This document shows positions 3,667 to 51,673 of a stretch of DNA of 64,000 nt, piece after piece. The stretch's first letter is position 1; each line of letters opens with the position of its first letter. The notes under the pieces are model-generated. The model saw only the letters and a program-made list of their open reading frames with translations. It searched no databases and was not told where the DNA came from. The DNA comes from an uncultured Clostridia bacterium (GTDB lineage Bacteria > CAYTYR01 > UBA6262): positions 62,001 through 126,000 of the forward strand of contig CAYTYR010000002.1 in the NCBI GenBank assembly GCA_964441745.1, written 5' to 3'. The translations under genes and the position numbers were made by a program.

Positions 3667-3765
3667 GGGTGATGGTTGTAGAAGTAGGTATAGAAGTAGG
3701 AAGTAGGTCTTAGGGTTTTAAGCCAAACTTCCTTAGACTTATGCTTACTTCCAAAACTTACACCC
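3667..3765 (+). repeat. Family A ~100 bp imperfect hairpin repeat, empty copy 1
   Basis: GGGTGATGGTTGTAGAAGTAGGTAT...CTTACTTCCAAAACTTACACCC. Confidence 0.9.
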
Positions 3766-3794
3766 TTTAACCTACTAAATAAATAGGAGCAAAA

Positions 3795-4793
3795 ATGCCA
3801 GAACTAAGAAAAGACCCGATTATCGGGCGCTGGGTTATTATTGCTACAGAACGATCAAAAAGACCAATGGAGTTTGAAAAAGAGGAAACGCAGGCTGATT
3901 TCAAGCATTGCCCCTTCTGCCCCGGCAATGAAAGCAAAACACCGCCGGAAATCCTCGCCTACCGGGCCAATGGCTCTAAACCGAATGAGACTGGCTGGTG
4001 GGTCAGGGTAGTTCCCAATAAGTATCCAGCCCTGCAGATTGAAGGAGCGCTGAACCGCACCGGCGAGGGTATGTATGATAAGATGAACGGATTGGGAGCC
4101 CACGAAGTCATTATCGAAACCCCGGACCATGCTAAATCGCTGGCCCAATTGGAGAATAATCATATTGAAGAGATCCTCTGGGTTTATCGCGACCGGATCG
4201 TTGACCTGAAAAAAGATTCCCGGTTTGAATATATCCTGATCTTTAAGAATCATGGCTTTTCGGCCGGAGCCACATTGCTGCATTCACATTCCCAGTTGAT
4301 TGCCACACCGATCATCCCCAAGAGAGTCAACGAGGAAGTTGCCGGCAGTAAAAAGTATTATGATTATAAAGAACGGTGCGTCTATTGCGACATTGTCAAA
4401 CAGGAAATTAGTTCTAAAGTACGGCTAGTCGGCGAGAATGACGCGCATATTGCCATTGCTCCTTTTGCCTCGCGGTTCCCTTTTGAGACCTGGATCATGC
4501 CTAAGAAACACTCTTGTTGTTTTGAAGACATCCAGAAAAAGGAAGTTTCTTCCCTGGCCGCGATCCTGAAAGATATACTGCTGCGGATGGATAAAGTACT
4601 GGTTAATCCATCTTATAATTTTATTTTACACAACTCACCCTGCAACATGAATAATTTGCCTTATTATCACTGGCACATCGAGATTATTCCTAAATTGACC
4701 AAGGTTGCCGGTTTTGAATGGGGTACCGGGTTCCATATTAATCCGACTCTGCCGGAAGATGCTACTAAATATTTGCGAGAAGCAGAGATCTAA
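3795..4793 (+). CDS. galT: Galactose-1-phosphate uridylyltransferase (GalT/HIT family)
   Basis: MPELRKDP..GRWVIIA.ER..RP, CPFCPGNE, GAHEVIIE and HSHSQ motifs. Confidence 0.9.
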   Translation: MPELRKDPIIGRWVIIATERSKRPMEFEKEETQADFKHCPFCPGNESKTPPEILAYRANGSKPNETGWWVRVVPNKYPALQIEGALNRTGEGMYDKMNGLGAHEVIIETPDHAKSLAQLENNHIEEILWVYRDRIVDLKKDSRFEYILIFKNHGFSAGATLLHSHSQLIATPIIPKRVNEEVAGSKKYYDYKERCVYCDIVKQEISSKVRLVGENDAHIAIAPFASRFPFETWIMPKKHSCCFEDIQKKEVSSLAAILKDILLRMDKVLVNPSYNFILHNSPCNMNNLPYYHWHIEIIPKLTKVAGFEWGTGFHINPTLPEDATKYLREAEI

Positions 4794-4813
4794 ATACCTC
4801 GGGAGGAAAGAAA

Positions 4814-6274
4814 ATGAAAATTGTTATTACCGCTTCGGAATGCGTGCCTTTTGTCAAGACTGGCGGACTGGCCGACGTGGCCGGGGCTTTGGCCAAGATC
4901 CTGAAAAAAGAAGGGCACAAAGTAGTTGTATTTTTACCTAAGTACAAAAAAGTTGACGCTAAAGCCTACGCCCTGAAAACTGTTTATAAAAATCTCCAGG
5001 TCCCGGTTGGGGAAAAAATAGAAAAAGCGGATATTCAGGTTTCCACTAAAGTGGATGGTATCCCGGTCTATTTTATTGATCATCCCGGCTATTTTGACCG
5101 TGATGAACTATATCGTACCGCTAACGGCGATTATGAGGATAACGGCGAAAGATTTATCTTTTTCTCCCATGCCGTGCTGGAAGGACTGAAAGCGATCGAT
5201 TTCCAGCCGGATATCATCCATGCTCATGACTGGCAGGCAGGGATGATTCCGGCCTATCTGAAAACCAGCTATAAATATGATTCTTTTTTCGCTCATACCC
5301 GGACTGTTTTCACTATTCACAACCTGGCCTACCAGGGTACCTATCCGCGCGAGGCTTTGTTCCTCAGCGGTATTTCCTATGAAGAATTTACTCCTGAAAA
5401 ACTGGAATTCTATGGCAGTTTGTGTATCCTCAAAGGCGGCATAGTCTTCAGTGATATAGTTACTACCGTCAGTAAAAAATATGCTAAAGAAATTCTGACC
5501 GAGGAATTTGGCCGCGGCTTGGATGGCGTGCTCCTAAACCGGCAATCAGACTTGTATGGCATTATTAATGGCATTGACTATGACGAATGGGACCCTCAGA
5601 CTGATAAATACCTGCCGGTGAATTACGACTTAAAGACCCTGGCCAAAAAAGAAGAAGGCAAAAAGATATTTTTGGAAAGTTGCAAATTGTCCTATAACAG
5701 CAAAACCCCGGTGATTGGCATTGTTTCCCGTCTCGATCCGCAAAAAGGATTTGATATTTTGGGCGAAGCCATGGAAGAATTAATGAAACTGGATTTTCAG
5801 TTTGCGCTGCTGGGCAAAGGCGATGCTAATTTACAGGAATTATTTATTTCTATTGGTAAAAAATATCCCAAGAAAACCAGCATTAATATCGGTTTTGACA
5901 ATAAAGTGGCGCACCAGATCTATGCCGGTTGCGATATGTTCATGATGCCGTCCTATTTTGAGCCCTGCGGCCTGGGCCAGCTGATATCGCTTAAGTACGG
6001 GACCGTGCCGATCGTCCATGAGACCGGCGGTTTGGCTGATACGATCAAGGAATTCAGTCCATCTACTGGTAAAGGCAATGGTATTTCCTTTAAGGATTAC
6101 AATGCGGTAAGCTTGATCCAGGCGGTCAAAAGGGCCTTGGCGCTGTACCAGAAAAAGGCTGACTGGAATAAAGTGGTCACGAACGGATTGAAGAGCGATT
6201 TCTCCTGGGGAAAAGTCATCCCTGAATACATTGACCTGTATAAAAAAGCTGCGGCCAAAAAGGAACTTTCCTAA
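4814..6274 (+). CDS. glgA: Glycogen synthase
   Basis: KTGGLADV, HAHDWQ, TIHNLAYQG and PSYFEPCGL motifs. Confidence 0.95.
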   Translation: MKIVITASECVPFVKTGGLADVAGALAKILKKEGHKVVVFLPKYKKVDAKAYALKTVYKNLQVPVGEKIEKADIQVSTKVDGIPVYFIDHPGYFDRDELYRTANGDYEDNGERFIFFSHAVLEGLKAIDFQPDIIHAHDWQAGMIPAYLKTSYKYDSFFAHTRTVFTIHNLAYQGTYPREALFLSGISYEEFTPEKLEFYGSLCILKGGIVFSDIVTTVSKKYAKEILTEEFGRGLDGVLLNRQSDLYGIINGIDYDEWDPQTDKYLPVNYDLKTLAKKEEGKKIFLESCKLSYNSKTPVIGIVSRLDPQKGFDILGEAMEELMKLDFQFALLGKGDANLQELFISIGKKYPKKTSINIGFDNKVAHQIYAGCDMFMMPSYFEPCGLGQLISLKYGTVPIVHETGGLADTIKEFSPSTGKGNGISFKDYNAVSLIQAVKRALALYQKKADWNKVVTNGLKSDFSWGKVIPEYIDLYKKAAAKKELS

Positions 6275-8188
6275 TTGTCCAAGAAAAATATTCTTTTTCT
6301 TCTTATAGCCATTAGCTTGCTCTGGGCTTTGCTCTTGGTGGCCCGGCGGTATGCCTGGGAAAAAAACAATAAAAGCGTAGCCATAGCCATTGACGCTGAC
6401 GGATTATACGCTATGGCTCTGAGCCAAGGATTGACTTTTGAGCAAACGCTGGCCGCGGTCAAAACAGCGGGCGGGACTGCTCTGGGAATAACGGAAGATA
6501 CTCTCTCTTCATTGCAGCGGCGTGGGCTGATCAAGATAGAATATGGCAATAAGAATGAACGGGTCTATGCCAGCCCGCGTTGCGCCTACGTGGTTTGTCC
6601 TGAAAAAAATCTGGCCGGTAATATTGCCGCCAGATTTTCTCTCTTCCTGGGGGCTGAGCAGGTTAAACTTTTTTCAGATTCCGGCCATTGGATCGTCAGG
6701 TTAACCGTCATTGATCCGGAACTGGAAGAAAGTTTTGGCCTGGGTTTTTCCCCGGAACTTATGAAAAGCGCGCAACAGCATGGTTTTTATATAGTTTTAC
6801 GGCCTTATGGCCTAAATGGTTTGGGACAGATTAAAGATTGGTCAAATGTCCTGGCTGTAGTTTTCGCCGGCAAAAAAGTTAGCGGTTATCCGCAAGATAT
6901 TTCTAAAACTGTAGCTGTGCTTTCCGCTCTACCTGCCAAGATCGGCCAGATCGAATTTACCAGCCAGGCTGGTATGGACCTTCTGACCGCCGTAGCCGGA
7001 TTGCAGCATAAAGTGGTGCGGGTACACAGCCTTAGTGAAAAAGAGATCAGGGATATTGTAGACGAAAGACGTAAAATAACAGCAGGGGCCCTGATTGAGC
7101 GCTGGGCCCGTGCCGTCAAGGAACGTAACGTCCGACTGCTTTATATTCAACTATTTCCCCGTAATTTTAATGGGGTCAGTGAGACACTCTTTGATTTTAA
7201 TCTTTCCTATATCCGGCGCATTGCCACACGCCTGGTAGGAGCTGGTTACCAGCTTAATGGCTTGTCCGGATTAACAAATGTGACTACGAATAAAATGAAT
7301 GTCGGGCTGGTTGGCTTGGGAATATGGGCTCTGGCTGCGCTCATTGTTTTAACTTTGTGGCCGGTTACCGGTTTGACCTATACTTATAGTTTCCCTGTTT
7401 TTATAGTTTTACATGGATTATTAACTTTCGTAACTCCGACTCTGTGGTATGCCCAGAGGCTGGCTCTGGCCGCCAGTATGTTATTTCCATTTGGGGCCTA
7501 TCTCTGGATGCAAAATGAAATAGGGCATAACCTGGGTCCAGGTTATTTAAAGACCGCCAGGATCTTTAGTACTGCCACTTTGATCAGTTTGGGTGGAGCG
7601 GTTTGCATTGTGGCTCTTTTGTATGGCAGTTACTTTTGGCAAAAAATCGGTTCTTTCTCTGGCATTAAACTAGCCCTTACTGTACCGTTGCTGATGATAC
7701 TATGGCATAGCTTGCGCGGGGATCGGGATTACCCCTGGGCAAAATTCTGGGAACAAGCAGTTACCTATAAGCAGCTATTATTAATAGCTCTGATTGCTGC
7801 TGGTCTGGCCCTTTATTTATGGCGCAGCGGCAATAATGGCGCTTTTTTTGTTACCGCGGCGGAAGAAAAACTACGTCTGCTGCTGGACCAGTTACTGTTA
7901 GTCAGGCCCCGGACAAAAGAAATATTTTTTGGGCATCCCTTCCTGATGCTAGGCATTTACCTGGGCTTGAAAAAAGGCCGTAATTCTCTAGCCTTAGTTG
8001 CTGGCTTTGTCGGACAACTTTCCCTGGTGAATACTTTTTGTCATATGCATACACCGCTTAGTGTTTCTTTCTGGCGGGTATTTAACGGCTGGTGGCTGGG
8101 AGTCGTGATTGGCTGGGGCCTGCTTTGGTGTTACCAGGCGTACTTGAAAACTGACAAAAAAGGTGAACAACTGTGCCTAAAGTTTTAA
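6275..8188 (+). CDS. DUF5693-like membrane protein (commonly upstream of csaB)
   Basis: RAVKERNVR, RPRTKEI..GHP and NTFCHMHTP motifs; multi-TM C-terminal half. Confidence 0.7.
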   Translation: MSKKNILFLLIAISLLWALLLVARRYAWEKNNKSVAIAIDADGLYAMALSQGLTFEQTLAAVKTAGGTALGITEDTLSSLQRRGLIKIEYGNKNERVYASPRCAYVVCPEKNLAGNIAARFSLFLGAEQVKLFSDSGHWIVRLTVIDPELEESFGLGFSPELMKSAQQHGFYIVLRPYGLNGLGQIKDWSNVLAVVFAGKKVSGYPQDISKTVAVLSALPAKIGQIEFTSQAGMDLLTAVAGLQHKVVRVHSLSEKEIRDIVDERRKITAGALIERWARAVKERNVRLLYIQLFPRNFNGVSETLFDFNLSYIRRIATRLVGAGYQLNGLSGLTNVTTNKMNVGLVGLGIWALAALIVLTLWPVTGLTYTYSFPVFIVLHGLLTFVTPTLWYAQRLALAASMLFPFGAYLWMQNEIGHNLGPGYLKTARIFSTATLISLGGAVCIVALLYGSYFWQKIGSFSGIKLALTVPLLMILWHSLRGDRDYPWAKFWEQAVTYKQLLLIALIAAGLALYLWRSGNNGAFFVTAAEEKLRLLLDQLLLVRPRTKEIFFGHPFLMLGIYLGLKKGRNSLALVAGFVGQLSLVNTFCHMHTPLSVSFWRVFNGWWLGVVIGWGLLWCYQAYLKTDKKGEQLCLKF

Positions 8189-9234
8189 TTTCTGGTTACT
8201 ATGGTTATGATAATCTCGGTGACGAGCTTATTTTAAAAGCTATTATTGAACATCTCCGGGCTATTGATCCATCTTTAGATATTACCGTAATTTCCCACAG
8301 TCCCTGGCGTACGGTTAACTTGCATCCTTCGATCGAGGCAGTATCACGGAGAGATGTCTTTGGCATTTTTAAGGCCTTGCGGCAGTGCCAGCTTTTTATC
8401 AGCGGCGGCGGCGGGTTATTACAGGATACTACTGGCCAGGGTAGCGTCTTATACTATCTGGGGTGGGGGATCATAGCCAAAAAAATATTCCGTAAAAAAG
8501 TCATGCTCTATGCCCAGGGGATCGGCCCTTTGCACAGAAGTCTCTCCCGTTCTTTGGTAGGCGCTTGGATCGGTAAAATGGACCTGATCACTTTGCGCGA
8601 AGAGAGGTCGCGGCAAATACTGCAAGATCTGCGGGTACCAGATTCTATGATTAAAGTAACCGCTGATCCAGCGCTGGGGATGACGGTAAAAAATAGCGGG
8701 TCTTTGAGCGAGAAACATCCCTTATGCATCGGCGTAGTTTTGCGGCAGGGGCCGGATAAACTGCAGGCGGTACAGCCCTGGTGCGAGATCTTGACTAATG
8801 TTAAGAATATGTATAACGCCCGGATCCTGCTTCTTCCTTTCCAGGATCCTCATGATGTGAAATTAAACCGGTCTATCAAAGAAACCATGAAAGATAAAGT
8901 GGATCTTAAATACTGGGACAACCTGGGGGATATTTTTACTTTTTATGAAAGTGTGGATATTCTTGTCTCCATGAGGCTGCATGCTTTGATCCTGGCCGCA
9001 GTTTACGGTAAGCCGATGCTGGGTATTAATTATGACCCTAAGATAGATAATTTTTTGCGCTTATTTAACCAGCAGGCTGTAACCAGGGAAAAAGTAGTGA
9101 AAACGCTGGAAAATCTTGTCTATAAACAGAAAATAATTGCGGCAGAACAGAGTGCCGTATTGCAGCAATTGCAGGCACGCGCGAGGGAGAACGCAAAATT
9201 AGCGATGGCGCTAATTAACAGTAATAAAGGGTGA
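8173..9234 (+). CDS. csaB: Polysaccharide pyruvyl transferase CsaB
   Basis: ISGYYGYDNLGDE, SGGGGLLQD and MRLHALI motifs. Confidence 0.88.
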   Translation: MPKVLISGYYGYDNLGDELILKAIIEHLRAIDPSLDITVISHSPWRTVNLHPSIEAVSRRDVFGIFKALRQCQLFISGGGGLLQDTTGQGSVLYYLGWGIIAKKIFRKKVMLYAQGIGPLHRSLSRSLVGAWIGKMDLITLREERSRQILQDLRVPDSMIKVTADPALGMTVKNSGSLSEKHPLCIGVVLRQGPDKLQAVQPWCEILTNVKNMYNARILLLPFQDPHDVKLNRSIKETMKDKVDLKYWDNLGDIFTFYESVDILVSMRLHALILAAVYGKPMLGINYDPKIDNFLRLFNQQAVTREKVVKTLENLVYKQKIIAAEQSAVLQQLQARARENAKLAMALINSNKG

Positions 9235-9331
9235 AGGTTGTAGAAGTAGGTATGGAAGCAGGTCTAATGTTTGTGGTTAGAACCTAACACCCATAGACCT
9301 CAGACCAAACTTACTTCCAAAACATACACCT
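9229..9331 (+). repeat. Family A hairpin repeat, empty copy 2 (supplies the csaB TGA stop)
   Basis: GGGTGAAGGTTGTAGAAGTAGGTATGG...CTTACTTCCAAAACATACACCT. Confidence 0.9.
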
Positions 9332-9351
9332 AGTTATTCTTAGGAGAAAAC

Positions 9352-11319: not shown

Positions 11320-11347
11320 AAATAGTCCCGGGAGGAGAACTGAAATA

Positions 11348-11451
11348 AGGTGAAGGTTGGAGAAGTAGGTATGGAAGTAGGTTTGAGGTTTGTGGTTTAG
11401 AGCCTAATTCCCATAGACTTAAAACTAAACTTACTTCCAAAACTTACACCT
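11348..11451 (+). repeat. Family A hairpin repeat, empty copy 3
   Basis: AGGTGAAGGTTGGAGAAGTAGGTATGG...CTTACTTCCAAAACTTACACCT. Confidence 0.9.
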
Positions 11452-11501
11452 AATAACTATTTTAACTCGCGACTCGAGACAGTATTAAAACAGGAGGCAG
11501 C

Positions 11502-13889: not shown

Positions 13890-14282
13890 TTGAAAAAAAA
13901 TATAATTAAAGATAAAGCGTATCTTTTTGCTTTGAGCGTTATTAAATTAATTAAAAAAATGGGATTTGATCCTGCATCAAAAGTTTTAGGAAAGCAATTA
14001 GTAAGAGCAGCGACATCTATTGGGGCAAATATAGAAGAAGCTCAATCTGCCAGTAGCAGGAAAGATTTTATTAATAAAATTTATATAGCCAAAAAGGAAG
14101 CAAGAGAAGCTAATTATTGGTTAAGACTTATACGGGATGCTAGTTTATCTGATAATGATGAAATAAAGAAAATAATCAAAGATGGTGATGAAATCTACTA
14201 CATACTAACAGCAATTACTAAAACAGCAGAAAATAATAGTGTGAAATCCTTAATTTGTAATAAGCGCAGCGATAAAATTTAG
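13890..14282 (+). CDS. Four-helix bundle protein (TIGR02436 / 23S rRNA IVP family)
   Basis: QLVRAATSIGANIEEAQ.A.SRKDF..K..IA.KEA.E..YWL signature; visibly AT-rich. Confidence 0.9.
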   Translation: MKKNIIKDKAYLFALSVIKLIKKMGFDPASKVLGKQLVRAATSIGANIEEAQSASSRKDFINKIYIAKKEAREANYWLRLIRDASLSDNDEIKKIIKDGDEIYYILTAITKTAENNSVKSLICNKRSDKI

Positions 14283-17403: not shown

Positions 17404-17505
17404 CATATCCGAAAACGCAAAGCAAGCGAAAGCTTGTGACGCAAAGCCAAAGGGGCTAAGAATAAGCCAAGCTTATTTAAGCCAGCCGTATGCCGCCGAA
17501 GTATG
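17404..17505 (+). ncRNA. c-di-GMP-I (GEMM) riboswitch, copy 1 (variant)
   Basis: GCAAA-GCAAGC-GAAA-GCTTGT-GACGCAAAGCC...GGCTAA...AGCCAGCC...GCCGAA matches GEMM architecture. Confidence 0.75.
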
Positions 17506-17623: not shown

Positions 17624-17715
17624 GATCCGATAAAGGCAAACCCGCCGAAAGACGGGGACGCAAAGCCAAAGGGGCTAAAGACAGTATTCTAAGCCAGCCG
17701 TTGCTACCGAAGATC
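17624..17715 (+). ncRNA. c-di-GMP-I (GEMM) riboswitch, copy 2
   Basis: GGCAAACCCGCC-GAAA-GACGGG-GACGCAAAGCC...GGCTAA...AGCCAGCCGTTGCTACCGAA. Confidence 0.88.
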
Positions 17716-22802: not shown

Positions 22803-22973
22803 TAAAGGGGGAAGAGAAGAAGATGAACCGTAAGCTAACCTATTTTTTTGCGTTTTTCTGGCCTGGCTGTGTTCGGTTGAGTATCTGGTCTTAGAGGAAG
22901 CGCGTTTGGCCGTTCCAGAGAGCGGTTATCACCTGTATGATGATTCCATCCCTTAAGTAATCCCCATGTTTGA

Positions 22974-23068
22974 AGTTGAAGGTTGTAGAAGTAGGTATAG
23001 AAATAGGTTGTAAGTCTTAGGTTTAAACTTAAGACCTTAGACTAAACTTACTTCCAAAACCTATACCT
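22974..23068 (+). repeat. Family A hairpin repeat, empty copy 4
   Basis: TTGAAGGTTGTAGAAGTAGGTATAG...CTTACTTCCAAAACCTATACCT. Confidence 0.9.
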
Positions 23069-23101
23069 GATTACTGTTCTTCGTATTGACTATCTTTCGC
23101 A

Positions 23102-29390: not shown

Positions 29391-29422
29391 GTATTTAAAT
29401 TAAAAGGAGGGGGTACAGAGTC

Positions 29423-30346: not shown

Positions 30347-30350
30347 TAAA

Positions 30351-30457
30351 AGGGTGAAAGGTTGTAGAAGTAGGTATGGAAGTAGGAAGGAAGTCTGAGG
30401 GTTTAAGCCCAACCTCCTAAGACTTCAGACTAAACTTACTTCCAAAACCTAAACCCT
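30351..30457 (+). repeat. Family A hairpin repeat, empty copy 5
   Basis: AGGGTGAAAGGTTGTAGAAGTAGG...CTTACTTCCAAAACCTAAACCCT. Confidence 0.9.
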
Positions 30458-30492
30458 CTAACTGGTTTTAACAAAAGGATAAGAGGTTACGC

Positions 30493-31707: not shown

Positions 31708-31711
31708 TAGT

Positions 31712-31817
31712 AGGGTGAAGGTTGTAGAAGTAGGTATGGAGGTAGGAAGTAAGTCTTAGGGTTTTTAGCCCAACTTCCTCAGACCACAGACTAAACTTAC
31801 TTCCAAACCCAACACCT
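31712..31817 (+). repeat. Family A hairpin repeat, empty copy 6
   Basis: AGGGTGAAGGTTGTAGAAGTAGG...CTTACTTCCAAACCCAACACCT. Confidence 0.9.
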
Positions 31818-31845
31818 ATTAACAGTTATTTTAAAGGGGGTTAAC

Positions 31846-32769: not shown

Positions 32770-32774
32770 TAGTA

Positions 32775-32878
32775 GGGTGAAGGTTGTAGAAGTAGGTATG
32801 GAAGTAAGTCTGAAGTCTTTGGATTAGAGCCTTACACCCATAGACCTCAGACCAAACTTACTTCCAAAACTTACACCC
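32775..32878 (+). repeat. Family A hairpin repeat, empty copy 7
   Basis: GGGTGAAGGTTGTAGAAGTAGG...CTTACTTCCAAAACTTACACCC. Confidence 0.9.
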
Positions 32879-32901
32879 AATGACATTATTAGAAGAAGAC
32901 T

Positions 32902-33810: not shown

Positions 33811-33818
33811 AAGTAAAA

Positions 33819-33922
33819 GGGTGAAGGTTGTAGAAGTAGGTATGGAAGTAGGAAGTAAGTCTTAGGATTCAAGCCCAATTTCTATAGACCTTAGACCATA
33901 CTTACTTCCAAACCCAACACCC
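33819..33922 (+). repeat. Family A hairpin repeat, empty copy 8
   Basis: GGGTGAAGGTTGTAGAAGTAGG...CTTACTTCCAAACCCAACACCC. Confidence 0.9.
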
Positions 33923-33945
33923 AATAACTGTTTTTAAGAGGGCAC

Positions 33946-37336: not shown

Positions 37337-39661
37337 ATGAAATTTAAAACAATAAAATTTCTCTTACTGCTGTTTGCCTTAATGAACCTGCCTGGTTTGG
37401 CAGCGGCCGCGGTCATCGACAGTATGGAGGCGGTGGCCAACTGGAACAGCCAGACCGGTGACGGCAGTACGGTCACGGTGAGTACAACGACGGGGCACTC
37501 CAGCCTGGCTTTACAGCTGGATTATTCTTTAGGGGCCAGCGCCTGGGCGCAAGCCTATAAAAATTACCAGTATCTTGATCTTTCCGCTGAATACGCTCTC
37601 CGGTTCCGTTACCGCGGTACCGGCACGGCGGAAGAATTAGTCATGAAAGTCAAGGATGCGGATGATGATATGTTCCAATATTCATTAGGCCAGGTTACCA
37701 ATACTGCGAACTGGACCACGGCGACGATCAATTTAGCTGATTTTACCTGCGAGACCGCGCATTCTACCGGGAATCAGACCATGGATTGGAGCCAGGTGAA
37801 GTCACTGGAATTTGTCATCAACGATCAAGGCGATACTGGCGGCAGCGGCACCGTGGAAATTGACCAGATCGAAAAAATGGTCCAAAGCTCTGCCCAGATC
37901 CTGGTTTTACCGGTAGGCAACCTGCAGAATTTCGAGGCGGATAACAGCACAGTCATCTCCACTAAAACCGTTTTCAATTCCATCCAGGATTTCGAATCTG
38001 CTAATGGTACAACCGGTAGTTATTACTGGAGCGTCTGGAATTCTACGCCTACTTTCAGCGCCGGTACTGTCCACCGCGGCGCCCGGGCCGTAACCATGAA
38101 TGCCAATGGCACGATTGGGATATACCCTGTTACTGCCGGGGCTAATGCGGCTAATGCCGATACCTTTTCTGTCTGGGTCTATGACACCGAAGGAGCCAAT
38201 ACCTGTGAGATGCGGCTCACTGATACCAATGGCGGCACCAAGACAGTCTGGTCCAGTAATGCCGCCGTGCAGAACCAGTGGACTGAACTGACCTGGCCGG
38301 CCGGCAGTTTCACCGGTGTGGACCTGGGTAATATCAATGATGTCCAGTTGTATGAAGCCAATAACGGCACCTATTATTTTGACGACGTCGGTTTTTACCG
38401 CCAGGAACAGAAAGAAAGCGTCGCTGATTATGCCTGGAGCATTTATCTTTCTACGCCTACCTTGGAAACCGGTACCATTCATACCGGGACACGTGCCCTC
38501 AAGGCTAACGCCGGCGGTACAGTTGGTGTCAACATCGTTAATTACACCAGCGCCGGCATCAATATTGCCGCACGCCAGAACCTTTATTTATATGTTTATG
38601 ATACAGTCGGTAACAACAGCGTAGAATTAAGGCTGACTGATATTAATGGCGGCGCTAAGGCTCTCTGGTCCAATGGTACCGCTACCCAGAATGAGTGGTC
38701 TTTTATTACCTGGAACTTGAGCGATTTTGCCAGCTCAGTAGACTTAACCAAGATTAAAAATATCCAATTGTATGAATATAATCCCGGCACGTATTATTTC
38801 GATGATATCGGAGTAGAGAGCAGTTTAACCGTAGCTCTGAACAGTAATGGCTATATTGATGAAATGGAAACAGCAGCAGACGAGTCGAGCTGGTCAGCCA
38901 GCGGCGCCAGCAGTACCAACACTGCTTTGCATACAGTCACTGGAGCTGTCGGCCACGCTATCCAGCTTGATTACAATCTGGCCCAGGGCGCTTGGGTGCT
39001 CCTGTCCCGGAAATTCTCCCTCACTTTGATCGACGGTAACCAGTGTAAATTCTGGCTCAAACAGACTGGTGACAAAAATTATATCGAAGTGAAATTGAAA
39101 GATTCAGACGGTACGGTATTTTATCACAAACGCACCTACGATACTTTCAATAGCTGGATGGAGATAGTCATTCCCTACAAGAATTTTATCTGGTTTGAAA
39201 GCGGGACTGATGAAAACCTGAACCTCAGCGAGATCACCTCTATCTATTTTACGATATCCAAAAAAGACGGGACTACCGGCACGGTCCTGGTGGACGAATT
39301 GCAGTATGAACAAAAGCCAGCCATTACCCAGAATTTAGGCGAAGACAAAGTGTTACAGCAGTTAATAGTCACAGGCAATCCTTTCTCGCCCAGCGGCGAA
39401 GGCGGCAAAAATACCGTCAAGCTCAATATGCTCCTGACTGAACCGGCGTCTATCCGCCTGCGTGTCTATAACCTGGCCGGTGATGTGCTTTATGAAAAAG
39501 AACAGGATTTCACTGCCGGCAGCCAACAGGTGAACTGGGATGGCCGGGACAGCAATGGGGAAGTGCAACGCAGCGGACTTTATTTCTATCATCTTAAAGT
39601 GACCGGCCATACCAGCAGTAAAGAAGAGACTTTCAAACACATCATCGGGATAGCGAAGTGA
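37337..39661 (+). CDS. Secreted multi-CBM (CBM11-like) protein with T9SS-type/FlgD-Ig C-terminal domain
   Basis: Signal peptide; galactose-binding-like repeats; NPFSP...VYNLAG...WDGRD..G....SGLY.Y. Confidence 0.7.
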   Translation: MKFKTIKFLLLLFALMNLPGLAAAAVIDSMEAVANWNSQTGDGSTVTVSTTTGHSSLALQLDYSLGASAWAQAYKNYQYLDLSAEYALRFRYRGTGTAEELVMKVKDADDDMFQYSLGQVTNTANWTTATINLADFTCETAHSTGNQTMDWSQVKSLEFVINDQGDTGGSGTVEIDQIEKMVQSSAQILVLPVGNLQNFEADNSTVISTKTVFNSIQDFESANGTTGSYYWSVWNSTPTFSAGTVHRGARAVTMNANGTIGIYPVTAGANAANADTFSVWVYDTEGANTCEMRLTDTNGGTKTVWSSNAAVQNQWTELTWPAGSFTGVDLGNINDVQLYEANNGTYYFDDVGFYRQEQKESVADYAWSIYLSTPTLETGTIHTGTRALKANAGGTVGVNIVNYTSAGINIAARQNLYLYVYDTVGNNSVELRLTDINGGAKALWSNGTATQNEWSFITWNLSDFASSVDLTKIKNIQLYEYNPGTYYFDDIGVESSLTVALNSNGYIDEMETAADESSWSASGASSTNTALHTVTGAVGHAIQLDYNLAQGAWVLLSRKFSLTLIDGNQCKFWLKQTGDKNYIEVKLKDSDGTVFYHKRTYDTFNSWMEIVIPYKNFIWFESGTDENLNLSEITSIYFTISKKDGTTGTVLVDELQYEQKPAITQNLGEDKVLQQLIVTGNPFSPSGEGGKNTVKLNMLLTEPASIRLRVYNLAGDVLYEKEQDFTAGSQQVNWDGRDSNGEVQRSGLYFYHLKVTGHTSSKEETFKHIIGIAK

Positions 39662-39722
39662 TTACCCGCCAAAGAGCGCCGGCGGGCGCAGCACAGATTA
39701 CGAAGAGAGATTACACAGATTT
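39660..39722 (+). repeat. Family D repeat arm with 27 bp mini-insertion
   Basis: GATTAC[27 bp]ACAGATT...GATTACACAGATT. Confidence 0.75.
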
Positions 39723-39735
39723 CAAAGAGGTAAAA

Positions 39736-40596
39736 ATGAAAAAAGCACTGCTTTTGTTATTTTTATTACTGCTGACCGCTGTCCTCTGTCCGCTGACCGC
39801 TGTAAATGCCGGGATGTTCGAACCGCTCGGCCTGGGCGCGCGGCCGCTGGCTATGGGCAAGTCTTTCACCGCCCTGGCCAATGATGCTTCCTGTATTTAC
39901 TGGAATCCGGCTGGCTTGACCCAGTTGGATAAAGATGAGATTATCACCATGTACAGCGACCTGTACAATATGGGGCTTATTTCTTACCAGGGAGTGTGTT
40001 ACGCTCATCCCGGCATTGGCGGCGGGGCCATTGGTTTTGGCTATACCCGGCTGGCTACTTCAGAAAAAGTGGATTTTCTTGATTTTCAGGAAAGCACTTT
40101 TATGTTTTCGTATGCCCTGAGTCTGCTGAGATATACCTCGGTCGGAATAAATTTAAAATACTACCTGGCTGATTTTGAAACCAGCGGCACCGGCGCTGGC
40201 ATCGATGCCGGTATCCTGTTCAACTATAACAATATTGTGTCAGTAGGATTTACTGCCCAGGACCTTAATGAACCAGAAGTACAGTTCCAGAGCGGCGGCG
40301 CAGATAAATTACCCATGAACTTGAAAGCCGGCCTGGCCATAGCGCCGATCCAGGACCTGGTAGTCGCTTTAGATATGGATAATATCAATGAAGATGCCAA
40401 ATTACACTTAGGAGCCGAGTACTGGCTGGGCAAGCATTTTGCCGTGCGGGCAGGCGGTATCAACCAGTACGAAAGCAACTGGACCTATTCCGGCGGCCTG
40501 GGTATTGTTTATAAAGCTATCAAGCTGGATTATGCCTACCAACGGCATTTTGACCTGGAAGATACGCATTTTGTATCCCTGGGATTTGTATTCTAA
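39736..40596 (+). CDS. PorV/PorQ-family outer-membrane beta-barrel
   Basis: GARPLAMG..FTALANDAS.IYWNPAG; terminal THFVSLGFVF; start moved to ATG after GAGG. Confidence 0.82.
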   Translation: MKKALLLLFLLLLTAVLCPLTAVNAGMFEPLGLGARPLAMGKSFTALANDASCIYWNPAGLTQLDKDEIITMYSDLYNMGLISYQGVCYAHPGIGGGAIGFGYTRLATSEKVDFLDFQESTFMFSYALSLLRYTSVGINLKYYLADFETSGTGAGIDAGILFNYNNIVSVGFTAQDLNEPEVQFQSGGADKLPMNLKAGLAIAPIQDLVVALDMDNINEDAKLHLGAEYWLGKHFAVRAGGINQYESNWTYSGGLGIVYKAIKLDYAYQRHFDLEDTHFVSLGFVF

Positions 40597-40700
40597 GGTG
40601 AAGGTTGTAGAAGTAGGTATGGAAGTAGGAAGTAAGTCTTAGAGCTTTAAGCCCAACTTCCTCAGACCTTAGACCATACTTACTTCCAAAACTTACACCT
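40596..40700 (+). repeat. Family A hairpin repeat, empty copy 9
   Basis: AGGTGAAGGTTGTAGAAGTAGG...CTTACTTCCAAAACTTACACCT. Confidence 0.9.
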
Positions 40701-40737
40701 GATAACTGCTTTTAGATTATACTTAAAGGATGGGAAA

Positions 40738-42753: not shown

Positions 42754-42759
42754 GCAAAG

Positions 42760-42817
42760 ACAGATTACACCGATTTTTAAAAGATCCGCCAGAGGCGGAC
42801 AGGGATTACACAGATTA
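42760..42817 (+). repeat. Family D repeat arm with TCCGCCAGAGGCGGA mini-hairpin
   Basis: ACAGATTACACCGATT...GGATTACACAGATT. Confidence 0.7.
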
Positions 42818-42834
42818 AAGCATAAGGAGGATGT

Positions 42835-46557: not shown

Positions 46558-47190
46558 ATGAATTACTTAGTATTAATAAAAAATCTACAAAAACGTAAAT
46601 ATTTCCTTTTTTCACTGCAGGATTTGATCGTTCTTTTCCCAAATGCCGGTAAAAAGACGCTTCAAAACCAACTTACAGCCTGGGTTGGCAAAGGCTATAT
46701 CAGGCATCTCAAACAAAATCTATATGAATTAATAGACAAAGGAGATCCGGATCAGGTAATTCCTGATCTCTATATCGCTAATAGGCTTTATTCGCCTTCA
46801 TACGTTTCTTTGGAGACCGCTCTTTCTATTTACAATATTATCCCGGAAGTTGCTTTTGGTGTAACCGCGGTAACGACCAAGCCTACCCGTGTTTTCAAAA
46901 ACCAGTACGGTCAATTTAGATATTTTTCTTGTCAGCCAAACGCCTATATCGGATATGTCATAAAAGAATATTCCGGGTATAAAGTTTTTATGGCGGAACC
47001 AGAGAAAGCGATCATTGATTTCCTGTACTTTCGGTTCAGGGGAAATGATCTTCCCAATTTTGCCGCTGAAAGAATGAATATTGCCTTACTCCAGAAATTA
47101 GATTGGCGCAAAATTTCCAAATATTGCGGGTTATATAATAAACGAATGCGTAAACATGTCCGGAAGCTAAAGGAGTACGCAGGATGCTGA
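46558..47190 (+). CDS. Type IV TA antitoxin, AbiEi family
   Basis: N-terminal wHTH; PSYVSLETALS.Y.IIPE and A.PEKA.ID motifs. Confidence 0.85.
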   Translation: MNYLVLIKNLQKRKYFLFSLQDLIVLFPNAGKKTLQNQLTAWVGKGYIRHLKQNLYELIDKGDPDQVIPDLYIANRLYSPSYVSLETALSIYNIIPEVAFGVTAVTTKPTRVFKNQYGQFRYFSCQPNAYIGYVIKEYSGYKVFMAEPEKAIIDFLYFRFRGNDLPNFAAERMNIALLQKLDWRKISKYCGLYNKRMRKHVRKLKEYAGC

Positions 47191-47969
47191 CCAGAGAAGG
47201 ATTGCGAGCCCAAGCCAAGCTGTTAGGCTTGCCTTTAAATAAAGAAAGAGCGATCATCAGGGAGTATGCGCAGACTATTGTTTTGAAAGCTATTTATCAG
47301 AGTGAATTTGGCCGGAAATTGTTATTCAAGGGCGGTACAGCTCTGAGATTTGCTTATAACTTGGGGCGTTTTTCCGAAGATCTGGATTTTACCGGTCAGG
47401 ATTTCCCGGCGGATGATTTTTCAGCCGTGATCGCTTTATGCCGGAAGGCTTTGAACCAGGAAGGATTTAAATGCGTAACCTCGGAAAAGAACAAGGAAAA
47501 TATAAAAGCCGGATGGATAAAATTAACCAATATCCTGCAAGAATATAAAATTACCAATATTAAAAGTGAAAAGCTGATGATCAAGCTGGAAGTGAGTCTT
47601 CCCGAGCGCCCTCTACAAAGAGAACCGGCAGTCATAGATAAATATGGTTATTTGTTTACGGTTTCTTTGCTGGAGCAGGGCGGTATTTTTGCAGAAAAGA
47701 TTGATGCTTTACTGCGTCGTTGCCGCGGCCGGGATATTTATGACTTGATTTTCCTGCTTAGAAATAAATTCTTGATCAATGAACAGGTTTTCCAGGCAAA
47801 AGGCTGGAAGATAGCGCCGCGCCAGGCAATCCTTGAAAGAATGGAGAAATTAACTCCTAAAGAATTGAACCGTTTAGCGGCGCAATTAGAACCTTTTCTG
47901 TTAAAGGAAGAAGAAACAGAGTATATAATCAATGCTAAAACATATGTGAAAGCTTTGAACATAACTTGA
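47184..47969 (+). CDS. Type IV TA toxin, AbiEii nucleotidyltransferase
   Basis: FKGGTAL...RFSEDLDF; EK..A...R...RDIYD. Confidence 0.9.
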   Translation: MLTREGLRAQAKLLGLPLNKERAIIREYAQTIVLKAIYQSEFGRKLLFKGGTALRFAYNLGRFSEDLDFTGQDFPADDFSAVIALCRKALNQEGFKCVTSEKNKENIKAGWIKLTNILQEYKITNIKSEKLMIKLEVSLPERPLQREPAVIDKYGYLFTVSLLEQGGIFAEKIDALLRRCRGRDIYDLIFLLRNKFLINEQVFQAKGWKIAPRQAILERMEKLTPKELNRLAAQLEPFLLKEEETEYIINAKTYVKALNIT

Positions 47970-48024
47970 CAAAACAGGATTTTCTGCTATATTTAATAAA
48001 AGTAATCATAAAGTTAATAGTCAC

Positions 48025-48123
48025 AGGTTGAAGGTTGTAGAAGTAGGTATGGAAGTAGGAAGTAAGGCTTTAAGCCCAACTTCCTCAGACCTAAGACTAA
48101 ACCTACTTCCAAAACCAATACCC
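48025..48123 (+). repeat. Family A hairpin repeat, empty copy 10
   Basis: AGGTTGAAGGTTGTAGAAGTAGG...CCTACTTCCAAAACCAATACCC. Confidence 0.9.
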
Positions 48124-48155
48124 TTTAACTGTTTTTAGTATTAATAGGAGATCTC

Positions 48156-50953: not shown

Positions 50954-51262
50954 TTGATTTATTCTTTAACTGCTAAAGGTAATTTTTCTAAAGACTGGGG
51001 CCTAAAGGAACAGATACAAAGAGCCTCGGTTTCCATAATGAGTAATATTGCTGAGGGATTTGACTGTAGTTCTAGTATAGAATTTGCCAGGTTTCTTGGA
51101 ATAGCACGAAGGTCAGTTTCAGAGGTTCAAAACCAGCTTTATATTGCTCAAGATTTAGACTATATTAGTGTGGCTGAATTTAAACTCTTATATAATAACC
51201 TAGAAGAAACAAGAAGACTAATAACTGCCTTTATCAAGTATCTTAAAAGCCATAAGTCTTAA
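50954..51262 (+). pseudogene. Four-helix bundle protein (23S rRNA IVP family), 5'-truncated
   Basis: QIQRASVSIMSNIAEGF...EF.RFL.IA..S..EV..QL signature; N-terminal helix missing, in-frame TGA at 50933, no RBS. Confidence 0.75.
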
Positions 51263-51320
51263 CTCGCAACTCGCAACTCGCAACTCGCAACTCGCAACTC
51301 GCAACTTGGAACTCGTAACT
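51261..51320 (+). repeat. Heptamer tandem repeat (AACTCGC)x6 plus 2 degenerate units
   Basis: Direct reading; overlaps the stop codon of the four-helix-bundle remnant. Confidence 0.95.
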
Positions 51321-51465
51321 GTATTATGCATTTCGCTTGACAAACCCGATTTTGTCTGCTATGTATCTATATATCTTTAAAACCCGCCTGCCCTCGCATC
51401 TTTGATTTGCAGGCAAATCAGCAGAGGGTAACCTTATTTTAATGTAGTTTAGTAGATTCCCTACA

Positions 51466-51503
51466 GGCTACAAAAGTGTATCACTACACTTATGTAGCTT
51501 TTT
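51466..51503 (+). terminator. Terminator-like hairpin in leader upstream of polysaccharide export genes
   Basis: GCTACA.AAGTGTA-TCAC-TACACTT.TGTAGC followed by a T run. Confidence 0.55.
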
Positions 51504-51569
51504 ATTTTCAAAATAGTTGGTATAACCTGGTATAACCAAATCGTACAATTTCAATAAAATATGTTTAAA

Positions 51570-51673
51570 GTTTGAGGTTGTAGAAGTAGGTATGGAAGTA
51601 AGAAGTAGGTCTTAAGGCTTAAAGCCCAACTTCCAAAGACCTCAAACCAAACCTACTTCCAAAACCAACACCC
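51570..51673 (+). repeat. Family A hairpin repeat, empty copy 11
   Basis: GAGGTTGTAGAAGTAGGTATGG...CCTACTTCCAAAACCAACACCC. Confidence 0.9.

What the first reader, a model, noticed from the sequence alone, without database searches (positions are those of the whole stretch)
3667..51673. Eleven strand-polarised ~100 bp intergenic hairpins (family A) punctuate operons
Seen: copies start near 3667, 9229, 11348, 22974, 30351, 31712, 32775, 33819, 40596, 48025 and 51570. All have the same orientation as transcription, with a G-rich 5' arm and a C-rich 3' arm. Several arm mismatches are G-T, which pair as wobbles only on the + strand. Outer arms are conserved and inner stems vary. Many copies sit just after a stop codon and shortly before the next RBS. 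One supplies the csaB TGA stop. Four consecutive junctions of the sugar ABC operon carry one. There is no clear target-site duplication and no consistent U-tract directly after the stem. Inference: the element acts as RNA (processing, stabilisation, stoichiometry) or inserts through a transcript-oriented route.
Basis: partly seen in the sequence, partly recalled or inferred. Interest (0 to 1): 0.8.

Follow-up and report, generated by a model that had tools for sequence, protein, structure and literature searches.

The report
Operon-spacer hairpin repeats linked to IVS-protein genes
A roughly 115-base hairpin-forming repeat fills about sixty spacers between genes in this small uncultured bacterium, nearly always pointing the same way as the genes, and one copy carries in its loop the same small gene found inside ribosomal RNA "intervening sequences".

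Summary
All 11 copies are at the stated places, and a 12th copy is split by a gene. Genome-wide there are 59 full copies in 2.07 Mb, and 54 of 59 point the same way as the adjacent gene. The family occurs only in this genus (4 of 5 sister species, 0 of 35 other genomes) and matches nothing in Rfam, plasmids or phages.

- A G-rich 5' arm with a C-rich 3' arm reads the same on both strands, so it marks no orientation.
- Both strands fold equally well.
- There is no covariation beyond shuffles.
- No target-site duplication and no strand-specific U-tract were found.

Two new points emerged. The split copy holds a PF05635 gene (23S rRNA intervening-sequence protein) exactly in its apical loop. PF05635 genes in this genus and in other phyla are often bracketed by similar complementary arms. 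Orthologous operon junctions in sister species carry other hairpin families, deleted remnants, or nothing.

Best reading (about 0.5): a REP/MITE-like palindromic repeat of an "IVS-type" stem class, co-transcribed in operons and probably cut or used as an RNA-end barrier. How it moves and what it does as RNA remain untested.

The parts
3665..3774 (+). Family A copy 1, upstream of the galT-like ORF 3795..4793
9227..9340 (+). Family A copy 2. Its TGA at 9232-9234 is the stop of the pyruvyl-transferase (CsaB-like) ORF 8173..9234.
11346..11460 (+). Family A copy 3, between the M23 peptidase and S41 peptidase genes
22972..23077 (+). Family A copy 4 (shorter inner stem), followed by a TTGACTG-type arm of another hairpin family. 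It is absent at the orthologous place in G003 and G004.
30351..30465 (+). Family A copy 5, sugar ABC operon junction 1. G002 and G004 also carry family A here; G001 and G003 carry other hairpin families.
31711..31826 (+). Family A copy 6, junction 2. The junction is empty in G001 (12-nt spacer), holds an internally deleted remnant in G002, and holds other families in G003 and G004.
32773..32887 (+). Family A copy 7, junction 3. Only a 5' remnant is left in G002; G001, G003 and G004 carry other families.
33817..33931 (+). Family A copy 8, junction 4. G002 has a short family A version, G001 and G004 carry the TAGCG-type family, and G003 carries the ATCAGG-type family.
40594..40709 (+). Family A copy 9. 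Its first three bases (TAA) are the stop of ORF 39658..40596. The junction is empty in G001 (14-nt spacer), and the 5' arm is deleted in G002.
48024..48132 (+). Family A copy 10, between an AbiEii-type gene and an epimerase gene
51567..51682 (+). Family A copy 11, in a 659-nt spacer downstream of a 5'-truncated PF05635 gene
53550..53604 (+). 5' half of a 12th, split family A copy (profile positions 2-56)
53625..54026 (+). 133-aa PF05635 / TIGR02436 gene (23S rRNA intervening-sequence protein, four-helix-bundle protein) sitting in the apical loop of the split copy
   Evidence: E 6.1e-16; E 2.2e-13; weak match to PDB 2gsc
54016..54095 (+). 3' half of the split family A copy (profile positions about 50-112). 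It pairs with the 5' half: duplex -58.5 to -62.1 kcal/mol, depending on the flank length used.
   Evidence: (D3)
13890..14282 (+). Second PF05635 gene of the window, with short AT-rich complementary flanks of another family (context)
50954..51313 (+). Third PF05635 gene (5'-truncated, 50954..51262) followed by an (AACTCGC)n 3' arm at 51254-51313 (context)
   Evidence: (D12)
58204..58633 (+). Fourth PF05635 gene (58204..58575), with a GAGTTTTGA-type arm upstream and a CTCAAAACT-type arm at 58602-58633 (context)
   Evidence: (D12)

Best explanation
Family A is a genus-restricted, multi-copy imperfect palindrome. Its core is about 115 nt, or about 125-135 nt with its pairing ends. It lives in the short spacers between co-directional genes.

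It is one member of a wider set of hairpin families in this genus. Their arms are built from short degenerate repeats, G-rich first and C-rich second. These families replace one another at the same operon junctions between species, nest inside each other's loops, and also bracket PF05635 ('23S rRNA intervening-sequence protein') genes.

I read family A as a REP/MITE-like DNA repeat with the architecture of an rRNA intervening sequence: a long stem, sometimes with the PF05635 ORF in the loop.

Because it lies inside operons it is co-transcribed. Its imperfect stem of about 35 bp most likely acts as a double-stranded RNA processing site (RNase III is encoded in the genome), as a barrier to 3' exonucleases, or both. 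That would cut or insulate segments of polycistronic mRNA, for example the binding-protein gene against the permease genes in the sugar ABC operon.

Shown: repetition, placement, orientation bias, genus restriction, turnover and decay at orthologous sites, nesting, and the PF05635 cargo.

Inferred: transcription through the element, cleavage or stabilisation, and any benefit to the host. The way it spreads is unknown.
For: - Copy number and placement: 59 full copies. Nearly all lie 0-30 nt after a stop codon and 10-45 nt before the next start.
- Orientation: 54 of 59 are co-oriented with the adjacent gene. By my own arithmetic the one-sided binomial against 0.5 is about 1e-11. All 3 copies beside minority-strand genes follow the gene.
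- Distribution: matches in 4 of 5 sister species (4, 87, 24 and 35 matches, both strands counted) and in 0 of 35 genomes outside the genus. The core motif is rare in public collections: 35 stretches in genome contigs and 22 in metagenome contigs, of which 16 are true copies.
- Turnover: at the four ABC-operon junctions in five species, 17 of 20 sites hold some hairpin, from at least four unrelated families. G001 has two empty junctions. G002 has three internally deleted family A remnants.
- Nesting: 12 of 59 copies are directly followed by the 3' arm of another family.
- Cargo: the split copy holds a PF05635 gene exactly at the loop. Its orthologue in G002 (90% identical) also has family A arms.
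- PF05635 genes are bracketed by complementary arms far more often than random genes. Flank duplex energies fall below the null 5th percentile for 2 of 7 (G000) and 10 of 18 (G001-G005), and for 13 of 21 in other phyla.
- RNase III is encoded at C7:72002-72409 and is itself followed by a family A copy.
- From the literature: IVS stems formed by terminal inverted repeats are cut by RNase III, and some IVSs carry this ORF (PMC4990558, passages read).
Against: - No RNA evidence of any kind is available.
- No covariation beyond shuffles, and RNAalifold predicted no pairs.
- The antisense strand folds equally well, so structure alone cannot explain the orientation bias.
- 1587 of 1679 genes lie on the G>C strand. 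A replication-linked insertion bias would therefore give nearly the same pattern.
- Hairpins are dispensable at some junctions (empty in G001, deleted in G002).
- Antisense copies persist: 5 of 59 here, and 7 more in G002 and G004.
- Only 1 of 60 family A copies carries PF05635.
- By the strict energy test only 2 of 7 PF05635 genes of this genome stand out (a third lies at the threshold).
- No 23S rRNA is assembled in this genome, so the rRNA-IVS parallel could not be checked here.
Confidence: 0.5

Rival explanations
1. Family A is a purely selfish DNA palindrome (REPIN- or PATE-like). It is moved as single-stranded DNA by a strand-specific enzyme acting in trans, for example one of the genome's Y1 (IS200/IS605- or RAYT-type) transposases. 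On this view its orientation follows the replication fork and it has no RNA role.
For: - The genome has 8 PF01797 (Y1_Tnp) matches, 7 of them uninterrupted frames of 119-334 aa.
- No target-site duplication was found, as expected for Y1 transposition (recalled knowledge).
- Copy number varies from 0 to about 60 among sister species.
- No covariation, and both strands fold equally.
- 48 of 59 copies agree with the local G>C strand, 8 disagree, and 3 lie where the skew is near zero.
- The palindromes decay by internal deletion.
Against: - The flanks of the 6 Y1 genes whose frames my ORF caller found (of the 7 loci I examined out of the 8 hits) carry their own, different repeats (GGGGTCAG-type and CCGTCTTTCCACC-type), not family A.
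- All 3 copies beside minority-strand genes follow the gene against the skew. This model has 8 exceptions of 59, against 5 of 59 for gene co-orientation.
- At 115 nt the element is much longer than a REP, and it has no RAYT flanked by it.
Confidence: 0.25
2. The PF05635-bearing copy is the master element. The ORF-less hairpins are its non-autonomous derivatives, and the four-helix-bundle protein is needed for their spread or upkeep.
For: - The only longer version of family A in the genome is the PF05635-bearing one. The other 5'-half-only hits (C3:48671, C9:8540, C11:11922) have no matching 3' half within 800 nt.
- The boundaries at the loop are clean.
- Other arm families also have both ORF-bearing and ORF-less members.
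- In an unrelated genome (G019) the arm heptads of its single PF05635 gene give 72 matches, against 0 for the reversed control.
- The idea that the IVS ORF codes for a mobility component is an old hypothesis (PMC4990558 discussion).
Against: - G003 and G004 have family A copies (24 and 35 matches) but no PF05635 gene with family A arms was found in them. The nearest relatives of the window's protein in G003 and G005 (58-60% identical) have unrelated arms, and G004's best match is 31%.
- The family A-armed gene sits at the same orthologous locus in G000 and G002, so it looks vertically inherited.
- PF05635 has no known catalytic activity (recalled).
- In G053 the arm motif is almost confined to the gene's own locus: 11 of 14 matches.
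Confidence: 0.1
3. Family A is a host-evolved cis-regulatory RNA or terminator-like signal that was selected at each junction and is not a mobile repeat.
For: - Some hairpin occupies 17 of 20 orthologous ABC-operon junction sites.
- The hairpin is consistently placed between the stop codon and the next ribosome-binding site.
- Intergenic stem-loops are reported to set subunit stoichiometry in Clostridium cellulolyticum (PMC4423207; search listing and start of abstract only).
Against: - 59 near-identical copies at unrelated genes, confined to one genus.
- No covariation.
- No strand-specific U-tract: 24 of 59 against 23 of 59.
- No Rfam match at gathering score. The best sub-threshold hits are chance matches to a microRNA precursor model, E 0.29-0.48.
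- Some junctions are empty or hold deleted remnants in sister species.
Confidence: 0.1

Closest known systems
REP/BIME and REPIN elements of Enterobacteria and Pseudomonas, associated with RAYT (Y1) transposases
   Same: Both are multi-copy extragenic imperfect palindromes found inside operons, without target-site duplication. A REPIN is a hairpin of about 100 nt. REPs between malE and malF are known to stabilise the upstream mRNA segment in a sugar ABC operon (recalled, not read here). Y1 transposase genes are present in this genome.
   Different: No Y1 gene is flanked by family A; those genes have other flanking repeats. Family A is a single long stem of 115 nt, not two 20-40 nt REPs. It has a strong orientation bias and one copy carries a PF05635 gene.
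23S rRNA intervening sequences (IVS) with or without the S23p / PF05635 ORF (Leptospira, Coxiella, Salmonella)
   Same: Both have a long stem made by terminal inverted repeats, with the PF05635 ORF in the apical part in some members and none in others. IVSs are excised by RNase III at the stem (PMC4990558, passages read). Both occupy the tip of a pre-existing helix. Family A shows the same habit: 12 of 59 copies nest in another hairpin family.
   Different: Family A lies in spacers between protein-coding genes, not in rRNA. It has about 60 copies per genome. No rRNA is assembled here for comparison, and cleavage is untested.
   Same: These are intergenic repeats of 100-150 nt that fold as RNA and lie within transcription units. 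Some are reported to show orientation-dependent effects on mRNA.
   Different: Those elements have terminal inverted repeats with target duplications (TA for Correia). Family A shows none. There is no sequence similarity in plasmid or phage collections or in Rfam.
Oriented intergenic heptamer repeats (TAACTGA repeats of Beggiatoaceae, cyanobacteria and Bacteroidetes; STRR of cyanobacteria)
   Same: Both are short repeat units in intergenic regions with a preferred orientation towards the downstream start codon, they contain stop codons in the forward reading, and they are spread patchily across phyla (PMC4679880, passages read). The arms around PF05635 genes here and in other phyla are built from such 7-8 nt units.
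   Different: That paper describes direct repeats with no predicted structure of their own. It does not mention IVS proteins: 0 occurrences of 'intervening sequence', 'four helix' or 'S23'. Here the units form two complementary arms.
Selective RNA processing and stabilisation by intergenic stem-loops (Clostridium cellulolyticum cip-cel operon)
   Same: Stem-loops at operon junctions are proposed to set the ratios of co-transcribed genes (PMC4423207 and PMC10311766; search listing and start of abstracts only).
   Different: Those stem-loops are unique sequences, not a dispersed repeat family.

Membership tests
REP/REPIN-RAYT system | Copies flank a RAYT (Y1 transposase) gene in inverted orientation | tested here: not met
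   The genome has 8 PF01797 matches. I examined 7 loci and my ORF caller found a frame at 6. Their flanks hold other repeats, and no family A hit lies beside any of them.
REP/REPIN-RAYT system | Many extragenic copies of an imperfect palindrome | tested here: met
   59 full copies, all outside the long ORFs called. One lies in a 5' leader that my crude ORF caller read through.
REP/REPIN-RAYT system | Unit of 20-40 nt with a conserved 5' GTAG next to the hairpin foot (recalled definition) | tested here: inconclusive
   The element is one stem of about 115 nt. GTAG occurs two or three times inside the 5' arm, but its role was not tested.
MITE (non-autonomous DNA transposon) | Target-site duplication | tested here: not met
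   A k-mer scan over boundary offsets of +/-12 found no more matches than flanks paired between different copies. For example, at k=5 there were 3 of 57, against a control mean of 1.1 and maximum of 5.
MITE (non-autonomous DNA transposon) | A longer autonomous copy with the same ends that encodes a transposase | tested here: not met
   The only longer copy encodes PF05635, which is not a transposase.
23S rRNA intervening sequence (IVS) | Located in helix 9, 25 or 45 of 23S rRNA | tested here: not met
   All copies lie between protein-coding genes. No LSU rRNA is assembled in this genome.
23S rRNA intervening sequence (IVS) | Extended stem formed by terminal inverted repeats | tested here: met
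   35-pair structure with 82.1% of cells paired; z -3.6 to -4.2.
23S rRNA intervening sequence (IVS) | Some members carry the PF05635 (S23p) ORF inside the stem | tested here: met
   ORF 53625..54026 lies in the loop of the split copy. The G002 orthologue is arranged the same way.
23S rRNA intervening sequence (IVS) | Excision by RNase III | not testable with these tools
   An RNase III gene is present. No RNA data could be obtained.
Intrinsic terminator | U-tract directly after the stem on the transcribed strand | tested here: not met
   A T run of 4 or more follows 24 of 59 copies, against 23 of 59 for the other strand.
Any Rfam family | Match at the family's gathering score | tested here: not met
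   In the whole window only two c-di-GMP-I riboswitches passed. In the E-value mode run over 30300-34000, which holds four of the copies, the only hits were to the mir-284 model, E 0.29-0.48 and 24 bits against a gathering score of 60.
Structured functional RNA (general) | Compensatory base changes beyond what column composition gives | tested here: not met
   Covariation score 0.128 against a shuffled 0.128 (269 of 500 shuffles as high). 13 pairs change on both sides, against a shuffled mean of 13.1.

The most novel reading that the evidence does not exclude
PF05635 'intervening-sequence protein' cassettes and their ORF-less hairpins may form one widespread class of stem elements that settle in the apical loops of existing helices. 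In 23S rRNA they are known as IVSs. In operon spacers they appear as hairpin families such as family A.

On this reading they are processed in the same way, by RNase III, so that in some lineages they punctuate polycistronic mRNAs. The repeat-built arms may be the binding array for the Avd-like four-helix-bundle protein.

If so, this genus offers a natural series: empty site, hairpin, nested hairpin, and hairpin with the ORF. That series could be used to work out what IVSs and S23p do.
Probability: 0.3. Interest if true: 0.8.

Novelty: new variant of a known kind. Interest (0 to 1): 0.62.

Why it matters
Palindromic intergenic repeats such as REP elements and MITEs are well known. rRNA intervening sequences with their small conserved ORF have lacked a known function or origin since the early 1990s.

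Here the same stem sequence occurs about sixty times as a bare hairpin in operon spacers and once with the IVS-protein gene in its loop. Genes of that family in several phyla sit in comparable stems outside rRNA.

This links two literatures that my searches did not find connected. It gives a concrete, testable idea: IVS-type stems may act as RNase III punctuation in mRNA.

It also shows that about a third of the sizeable spacers of this genome (305 of 866) belong to one web of such repeats. Anyone predicting operons, terminators or small RNAs in these uncultured lineages needs to take that into account.

Tried and rejected
- RNA evidence: the look-up of sequencing runs for window 29400-34800, kind rna, listed no RNA holder.
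- RNAalifold on 57 copies gave no pairs. I then supplied a structure built from the commonest MFE pairs.
- Terminator idea: a T run appeared after an extended stem in several window copies, but the count is the same on both strands. Rejected.
- RAYT/REP idea: 8 Y1 transposase matches exist, but the flanks I examined carry other repeats. My first script for these flanks used wrong frames and was redone.
- Retro-mobility idea: no RVT_1 match in the genome.
- rRNA-IVS check in this genome: no LSU rRNA is assembled.
- 'G-first against C-first' motif order as an orientation test (19:0, 8:0, 2:0 and 4:0 in families B-E, 5:3 in F). I rejected it as a test of orientation because that order is unchanged by reverse complementation. 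It only shows that these families belong to the G-first class.
- A fold-based polarity index over all spacers gave a mixed picture (91 positive, 72 negative, 99 neutral in the big cluster). Other repeat families with C-first stems also exist.
- Separating replication from transcription with more copies: ten regions from G002 and G004, chosen for discordant copies, held 7 truly antisense copies between co-directional genes and no further minority-strand case.
- Plasmid and phage collections: no match.
- Metagenome scan for further cargo-bearing copies: 16 of 22 loci are ordinary or shortened copies, and none carries a new cargo.
- Literature: five searches found no paper that connects PF05635 genes with intergenic hairpin repeats. 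One search call failed on term length.


Full report
**1. Is it there?**

Yes. The sequences at three of the sites read as described.

A profile HMM built from the 11 copies finds 122 hits in the window's genome, counting both strands of each palindrome. The genome is 2,069,592 bases in 39 contigs; the window is contig C2:62001-126000. The hits collapse to 64 loci. Of these, 59 are full length, four are 5' halves only and one is a 3' half only.

Two copies tested with the folding tool give z-scores of -4.16 and -3.61 against dinucleotide shuffles.

Rfam has no match at gathering score. Only two c-di-GMP-I riboswitches pass in the whole window. In E-value mode over 30300-34000, which holds four copies, the only hits are chance matches to a microRNA precursor model, E 0.29-0.48.

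**2.

These hold:
- Four consecutive junctions of a sugar ABC operon each carry a copy. The operon codes for two SLH-like glucodextranase-C proteins, a solute-binding protein and two permeases.
- The stop of the pyruvyl-transferase (CsaB-like) ORF 8173..9234 is the TGA inside the element. At least five other copies touch or overlap the upstream stop.
- I found no target-site duplication.
- I found no strand-specific U-tract: 24 of 59 copies against 23 of 59 on the other strand.

Two arguments do not hold:
- A hairpin with a G-rich 5' arm and a C-rich 3' arm reads the same way on the complementary strand. That feature says nothing about orientation. Orientation is defined only by the asymmetric details of the arms. 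The profile separates these well, for example 115.9 against 28.3 bits for the two strands of one copy.
- The wobble argument is weak. On a 35-pair structure derived from the commonest MFE pairs, 170 cells are G-U and 111 are A-C, which would be G-U on the other strand. Pairing is 82.1% in sense against 79.1% in antisense. Mean MFE is -32.9 in sense against -33.8 kcal/mol in antisense, and sense is the more stable strand in only 27 of 59 copies. The folding tool agrees.

**3. Orientation**

I used a crude ORF caller (ORFs of at least 100 aa, greedy by length; 1808 ORFs covering 91% of the genome).
- 49 of 59 full copies lie between two genes of their own orientation.
- One lies in the 5' leader of a co-oriented gene.
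- Four lie at convergent or divergent junctions, co-oriented with the nearest gene.
- Five are antisense.

That is 54 of 59. By my own arithmetic the one-sided binomial against 0.5 is about 1e-11.

The difficulty is that 1587 of 1679 genes lie on the locally G>C strand. Gene direction and presumed replication direction therefore coincide almost everywhere. 48 of 59 copies agree with the skew, 8 disagree, and 3 lie where the skew is near zero.

The only informative cases are three copies beside genes on the minority strand: a MazG-like gene, an HD-GYP/GAF-type gene and an HMGL-like synthase. These labels come from my reading of the translations and not from a family search. All three copies follow the gene. 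This favours a link to transcription but is thin.

I fetched ten regions from two sister species, chosen because the copies in them looked discordant. They held seven truly antisense copies and no further minority-strand case. Roughly one copy in ten is therefore tolerated in antisense.

**4. Conservation and covariation**

57 of the 59 full copies were aligned. The two short variants of 73 and 82 nt were left out.
- RNAalifold predicted no consensus pairs.
- On my 35-pair structure, 82.1% of cells pair against 81.5% in shuffles (46 of 500 shuffles as high).
- The covariation score is 0.128 against 0.128.
- 13 pairs change on both sides, against a shuffled mean of 13.1.
- Sliding the partner by 1-3 columns drops pairing to 33-46%, as expected for any palindrome.

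The stem is therefore a property of the consensus. There is no sign of compensatory evolution among copies.

**5. Distribution**

A covariance model of the family matches in 4 of 5 other species of the same genus, with 4, 87, 24 and 35 matches counting both strands. One species has none. It matches in 0 of 35 genomes outside the genus, including the sister genus of the same family.

The 21-base core occurs in 35 stretches of the species-representative genome collection. Most are in MAGs titled 'bacterium isolate STB_132', 'bacterium isolate STB_115' and 'Elusimicrobia bacterium UBA6262'. It occurs in 22 metagenome stretches, 16 of which are true copies.

Plasmid and phage collections have nothing.

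**6. Orthologous junctions**

The sugar operon is conserved in four sister species. Aligning the spacers shows the following.

| Junction | G000 | G001 | G002 | G003 | G004 |
|---|---|---|---|---|---|
| 1 | family A | other hairpin | family A | other hairpin | family A |
| 2 | family A | none (12-nt spacer) | internally deleted remnant | other family | other family |
| 3 | family A | other family | a few 5' bases only | other family | other family |
| 4 | family A | TAGCG-type | family A (short) | ATCAGG-type | TAGCG-type |

At 40596, G001 again has a bare 14-nt spacer and G002 has lost the 5' arm. At 55495 this genome has no hairpin, while G002 and G003 carry a large one.

Overall, 17 of 20 sites in the operon hold some hairpin. 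The families are swapped, decayed or missing. That is the behaviour of turnover-prone repeats and not of a conserved RNA.

**7. Many families, nested**

A BLAST clustering of all 866 spacers of 45-700 nt links 305 of them into one web of repeats that includes all 59 family A sites.

Other families have arms made of 7-8 nt units (TAGCGTA-, ATCAGGA-, AACTCGC-, GAGTTTTGA- and GATTACA-like), always G-first.

12 of 59 family A copies are immediately followed by the 3' arm of another family (TTGACTG-type). Several also have that family's 5' arm upstream, so family A sits in that family's apex.

**8. The cargo**

The split copy's two halves align to profile positions 2-56 and about 50-112, in order and on the same strand. 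The ORF between them, 53625..54026, is a PF05635 protein (23S rRNA intervening-sequence protein, E 6.1e-16). It also matches TIGR02436, 'four helix bundle protein', and has a weak sequence match to PDB 2gsc. The insert begins and ends exactly where ORF-less copies have their apical loop.

The orthologous gene in G002 is 90% identical, lies between the same neighbouring genes, and has family A arms too.

The genome has 7 PF05635 genes, four of them in this window. By eye, six have complementary flanks, each from a different family. The seventh is 5'-truncated and keeps only its 3' arm.

I applied a strict test: duplex energy of the 110-nt flanks compared with 300 random genes of this genome (null mean -34.5, 5th percentile -50.8 kcal/mol).
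- This genome: 2 of 7 fall below the 5th percentile, with a third at -50.7.
- The five sister species: 10 of 18.
- 21 loci from 20 genomes of other families (G012 gave two): 13 of 21 in the run, whose null was 150 genes with a threshold of -48.9. By my recount against -50.8 it is 12 of 21.

The null is conservative because many ordinary genes here are themselves flanked by repeats.

In one unrelated genome (G019) the heptads of the arms around its single PF05635 gene give 72 matches, against 0 for the reversed control. In another (G053) the motif is almost confined to the gene's own locus: 11 of 14 matches.

**9. What does not fit a 'master copy' model**

G003 and G004 have family A copies, but no PF05635 gene with family A arms was found in them. 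The nearest relatives of the window's protein in G003 and G005 (58-60% identical) sit in unrelated arms. G004's best match is 31%. The cargo gene therefore looks like a tenant of hairpin loops and not the engine of family A.

**10. Candidate machinery**

- No reverse transcriptase was found, which argues against a transcript-mediated route.
- There are 8 Y1 transposase matches. I looked at 7 loci, and my ORF caller found a frame at 6. Their flanks carry other repeats. One of these repeat types resembles the repeats at 59626-63452 of the window.
- RNase III is encoded and is itself followed by a family A copy.

**11. Reading**

The safest statement is that family A is a REP/MITE-like palindromic repeat confined to one genus, living in operon spacers, co-oriented with genes about nine times in ten, and subject to decay and replacement.

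Its architecture, and one cargo-bearing copy, tie it to the IVS type of element. In rRNA, stems formed by terminal inverted repeats are cut by RNase III, and some carry this very ORF (PMC4990558, passages read). That paper's discussion also records the old ideas that IVSs are transposition remnants or mobile elements whose ORF aids mobility.

I therefore think the most likely consequence of family A is double-strand-specific processing or 3'-end protection of operon transcripts. This would resemble what is known for REPs in the E. coli mal operon (recalled) and for unique stem-loops in Clostridium cellulolyticum (PMC4423207, listing and start of abstract only). None of this is shown here.

**12. 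Literature**

Five full-text searches found no paper that links PF05635 genes with intergenic hairpin repeats.

The nearest is a description of oriented intergenic TAACTGA heptamer repeats in Beggiatoaceae, cyanobacteria and Bacteroidetes. It proposes a post-transcriptional role and does not mention IVS proteins (PMC4679880, passages read).

Subscription journals are not covered by these searches.

**13. Verdict**

Family A is a new variant of known kinds (REP/MITE-like repeats and IVS-type stems). Interest is moderate to high because of the IVS-protein link, which can be tested at the bench.

Noticed in passing
window 17406-17497 and 17626-17712: Two tandem c-di-GMP-I riboswitch aptamers (RF01051 at 59 bits; RF03167, the GGC variant, at 61.9 bits) lie upstream of an 836-aa subtilase/fn3 protein (ORF 17804..20314).
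   Followed up: partly
window 59626-59711, 61166-61294, 61981-62079, 63354-63452: Another repeat family (GGGAGTCTCCGCCAA...TTAGTGGAGGAG) flanks two AAA_14/DUF4143 ATPase genes. It resembles the sequences on both sides of a 217-aa Y1 transposase-like gene at G000:C8:48198-48851. This may be a REP/RAYT-type pair separate from family A.
   Followed up: partly
G000:C7:72002-72409 and C7:72676-72781: The only RNase III gene of the genome is followed, 12 nt after its ORF, by a family A copy.
   Followed up: no
window 58594-58633; G002:C24 near 1022; G003:C50 near 31989: The 3' arm of the stem around some PF05635 genes lies inside the first codons (signal-peptide region) of the called downstream ORF. 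Either the true start is further downstream or the arm is coding.
   Followed up: no
window 29274-29423 and 42753-42835: Spacers are built from GATTACA/TGTAATC-type heptads around a GC-rich hairpin (CCGCC...GGCGG). The same junction in G003 holds a different, GTGTTAAG/CTTAAAAC-type hairpin.
   Followed up: partly
G000, e.g. C13:49271-49347, C10:51414-51489, C14:26854-26938: A separate repeat family has C-first stems (CCCCCCTAG...CAGGGGGG) in co-directional spacers. The G-first rule therefore holds for the heptad families but not for every repeat in this genome.
   Followed up: no
G000:C1:182315-183262, C1:186341-187126, C8:5396-6343, C22:25815-26810: Y1 transposase-like proteins of 261-331 aa are flanked by tandem GGGGTCAG / CTGACCCC-type repeats.
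   Followed up: partly
window 46558-47969: An AbiEii-type nucleotidyltransferase gene (PF08843; ORF 47184..47969) is preceded by a 210-aa ORF with no Pfam match. This may be a type IV toxin-antitoxin pair, and it lies just upstream of family A copy 10.
   Followed up: no
G019 (handle), e.g. C29:22324-22352 (+) and C29:22843-22864 (-): In an unrelated genome the GGTAAAR heptad arms occur at many loci. At one locus, inverted arm blocks lie about 500 nt apart with no PF05635 match there, so another small cargo may sit between them.
   Followed up: no
G000 genome-wide: Gene-strand bias is extreme. 1587 of 1679 genes lie on the locally G>C strand, and 1639 of 1769 adjacent gene pairs are co-directional.
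   Followed up: partly
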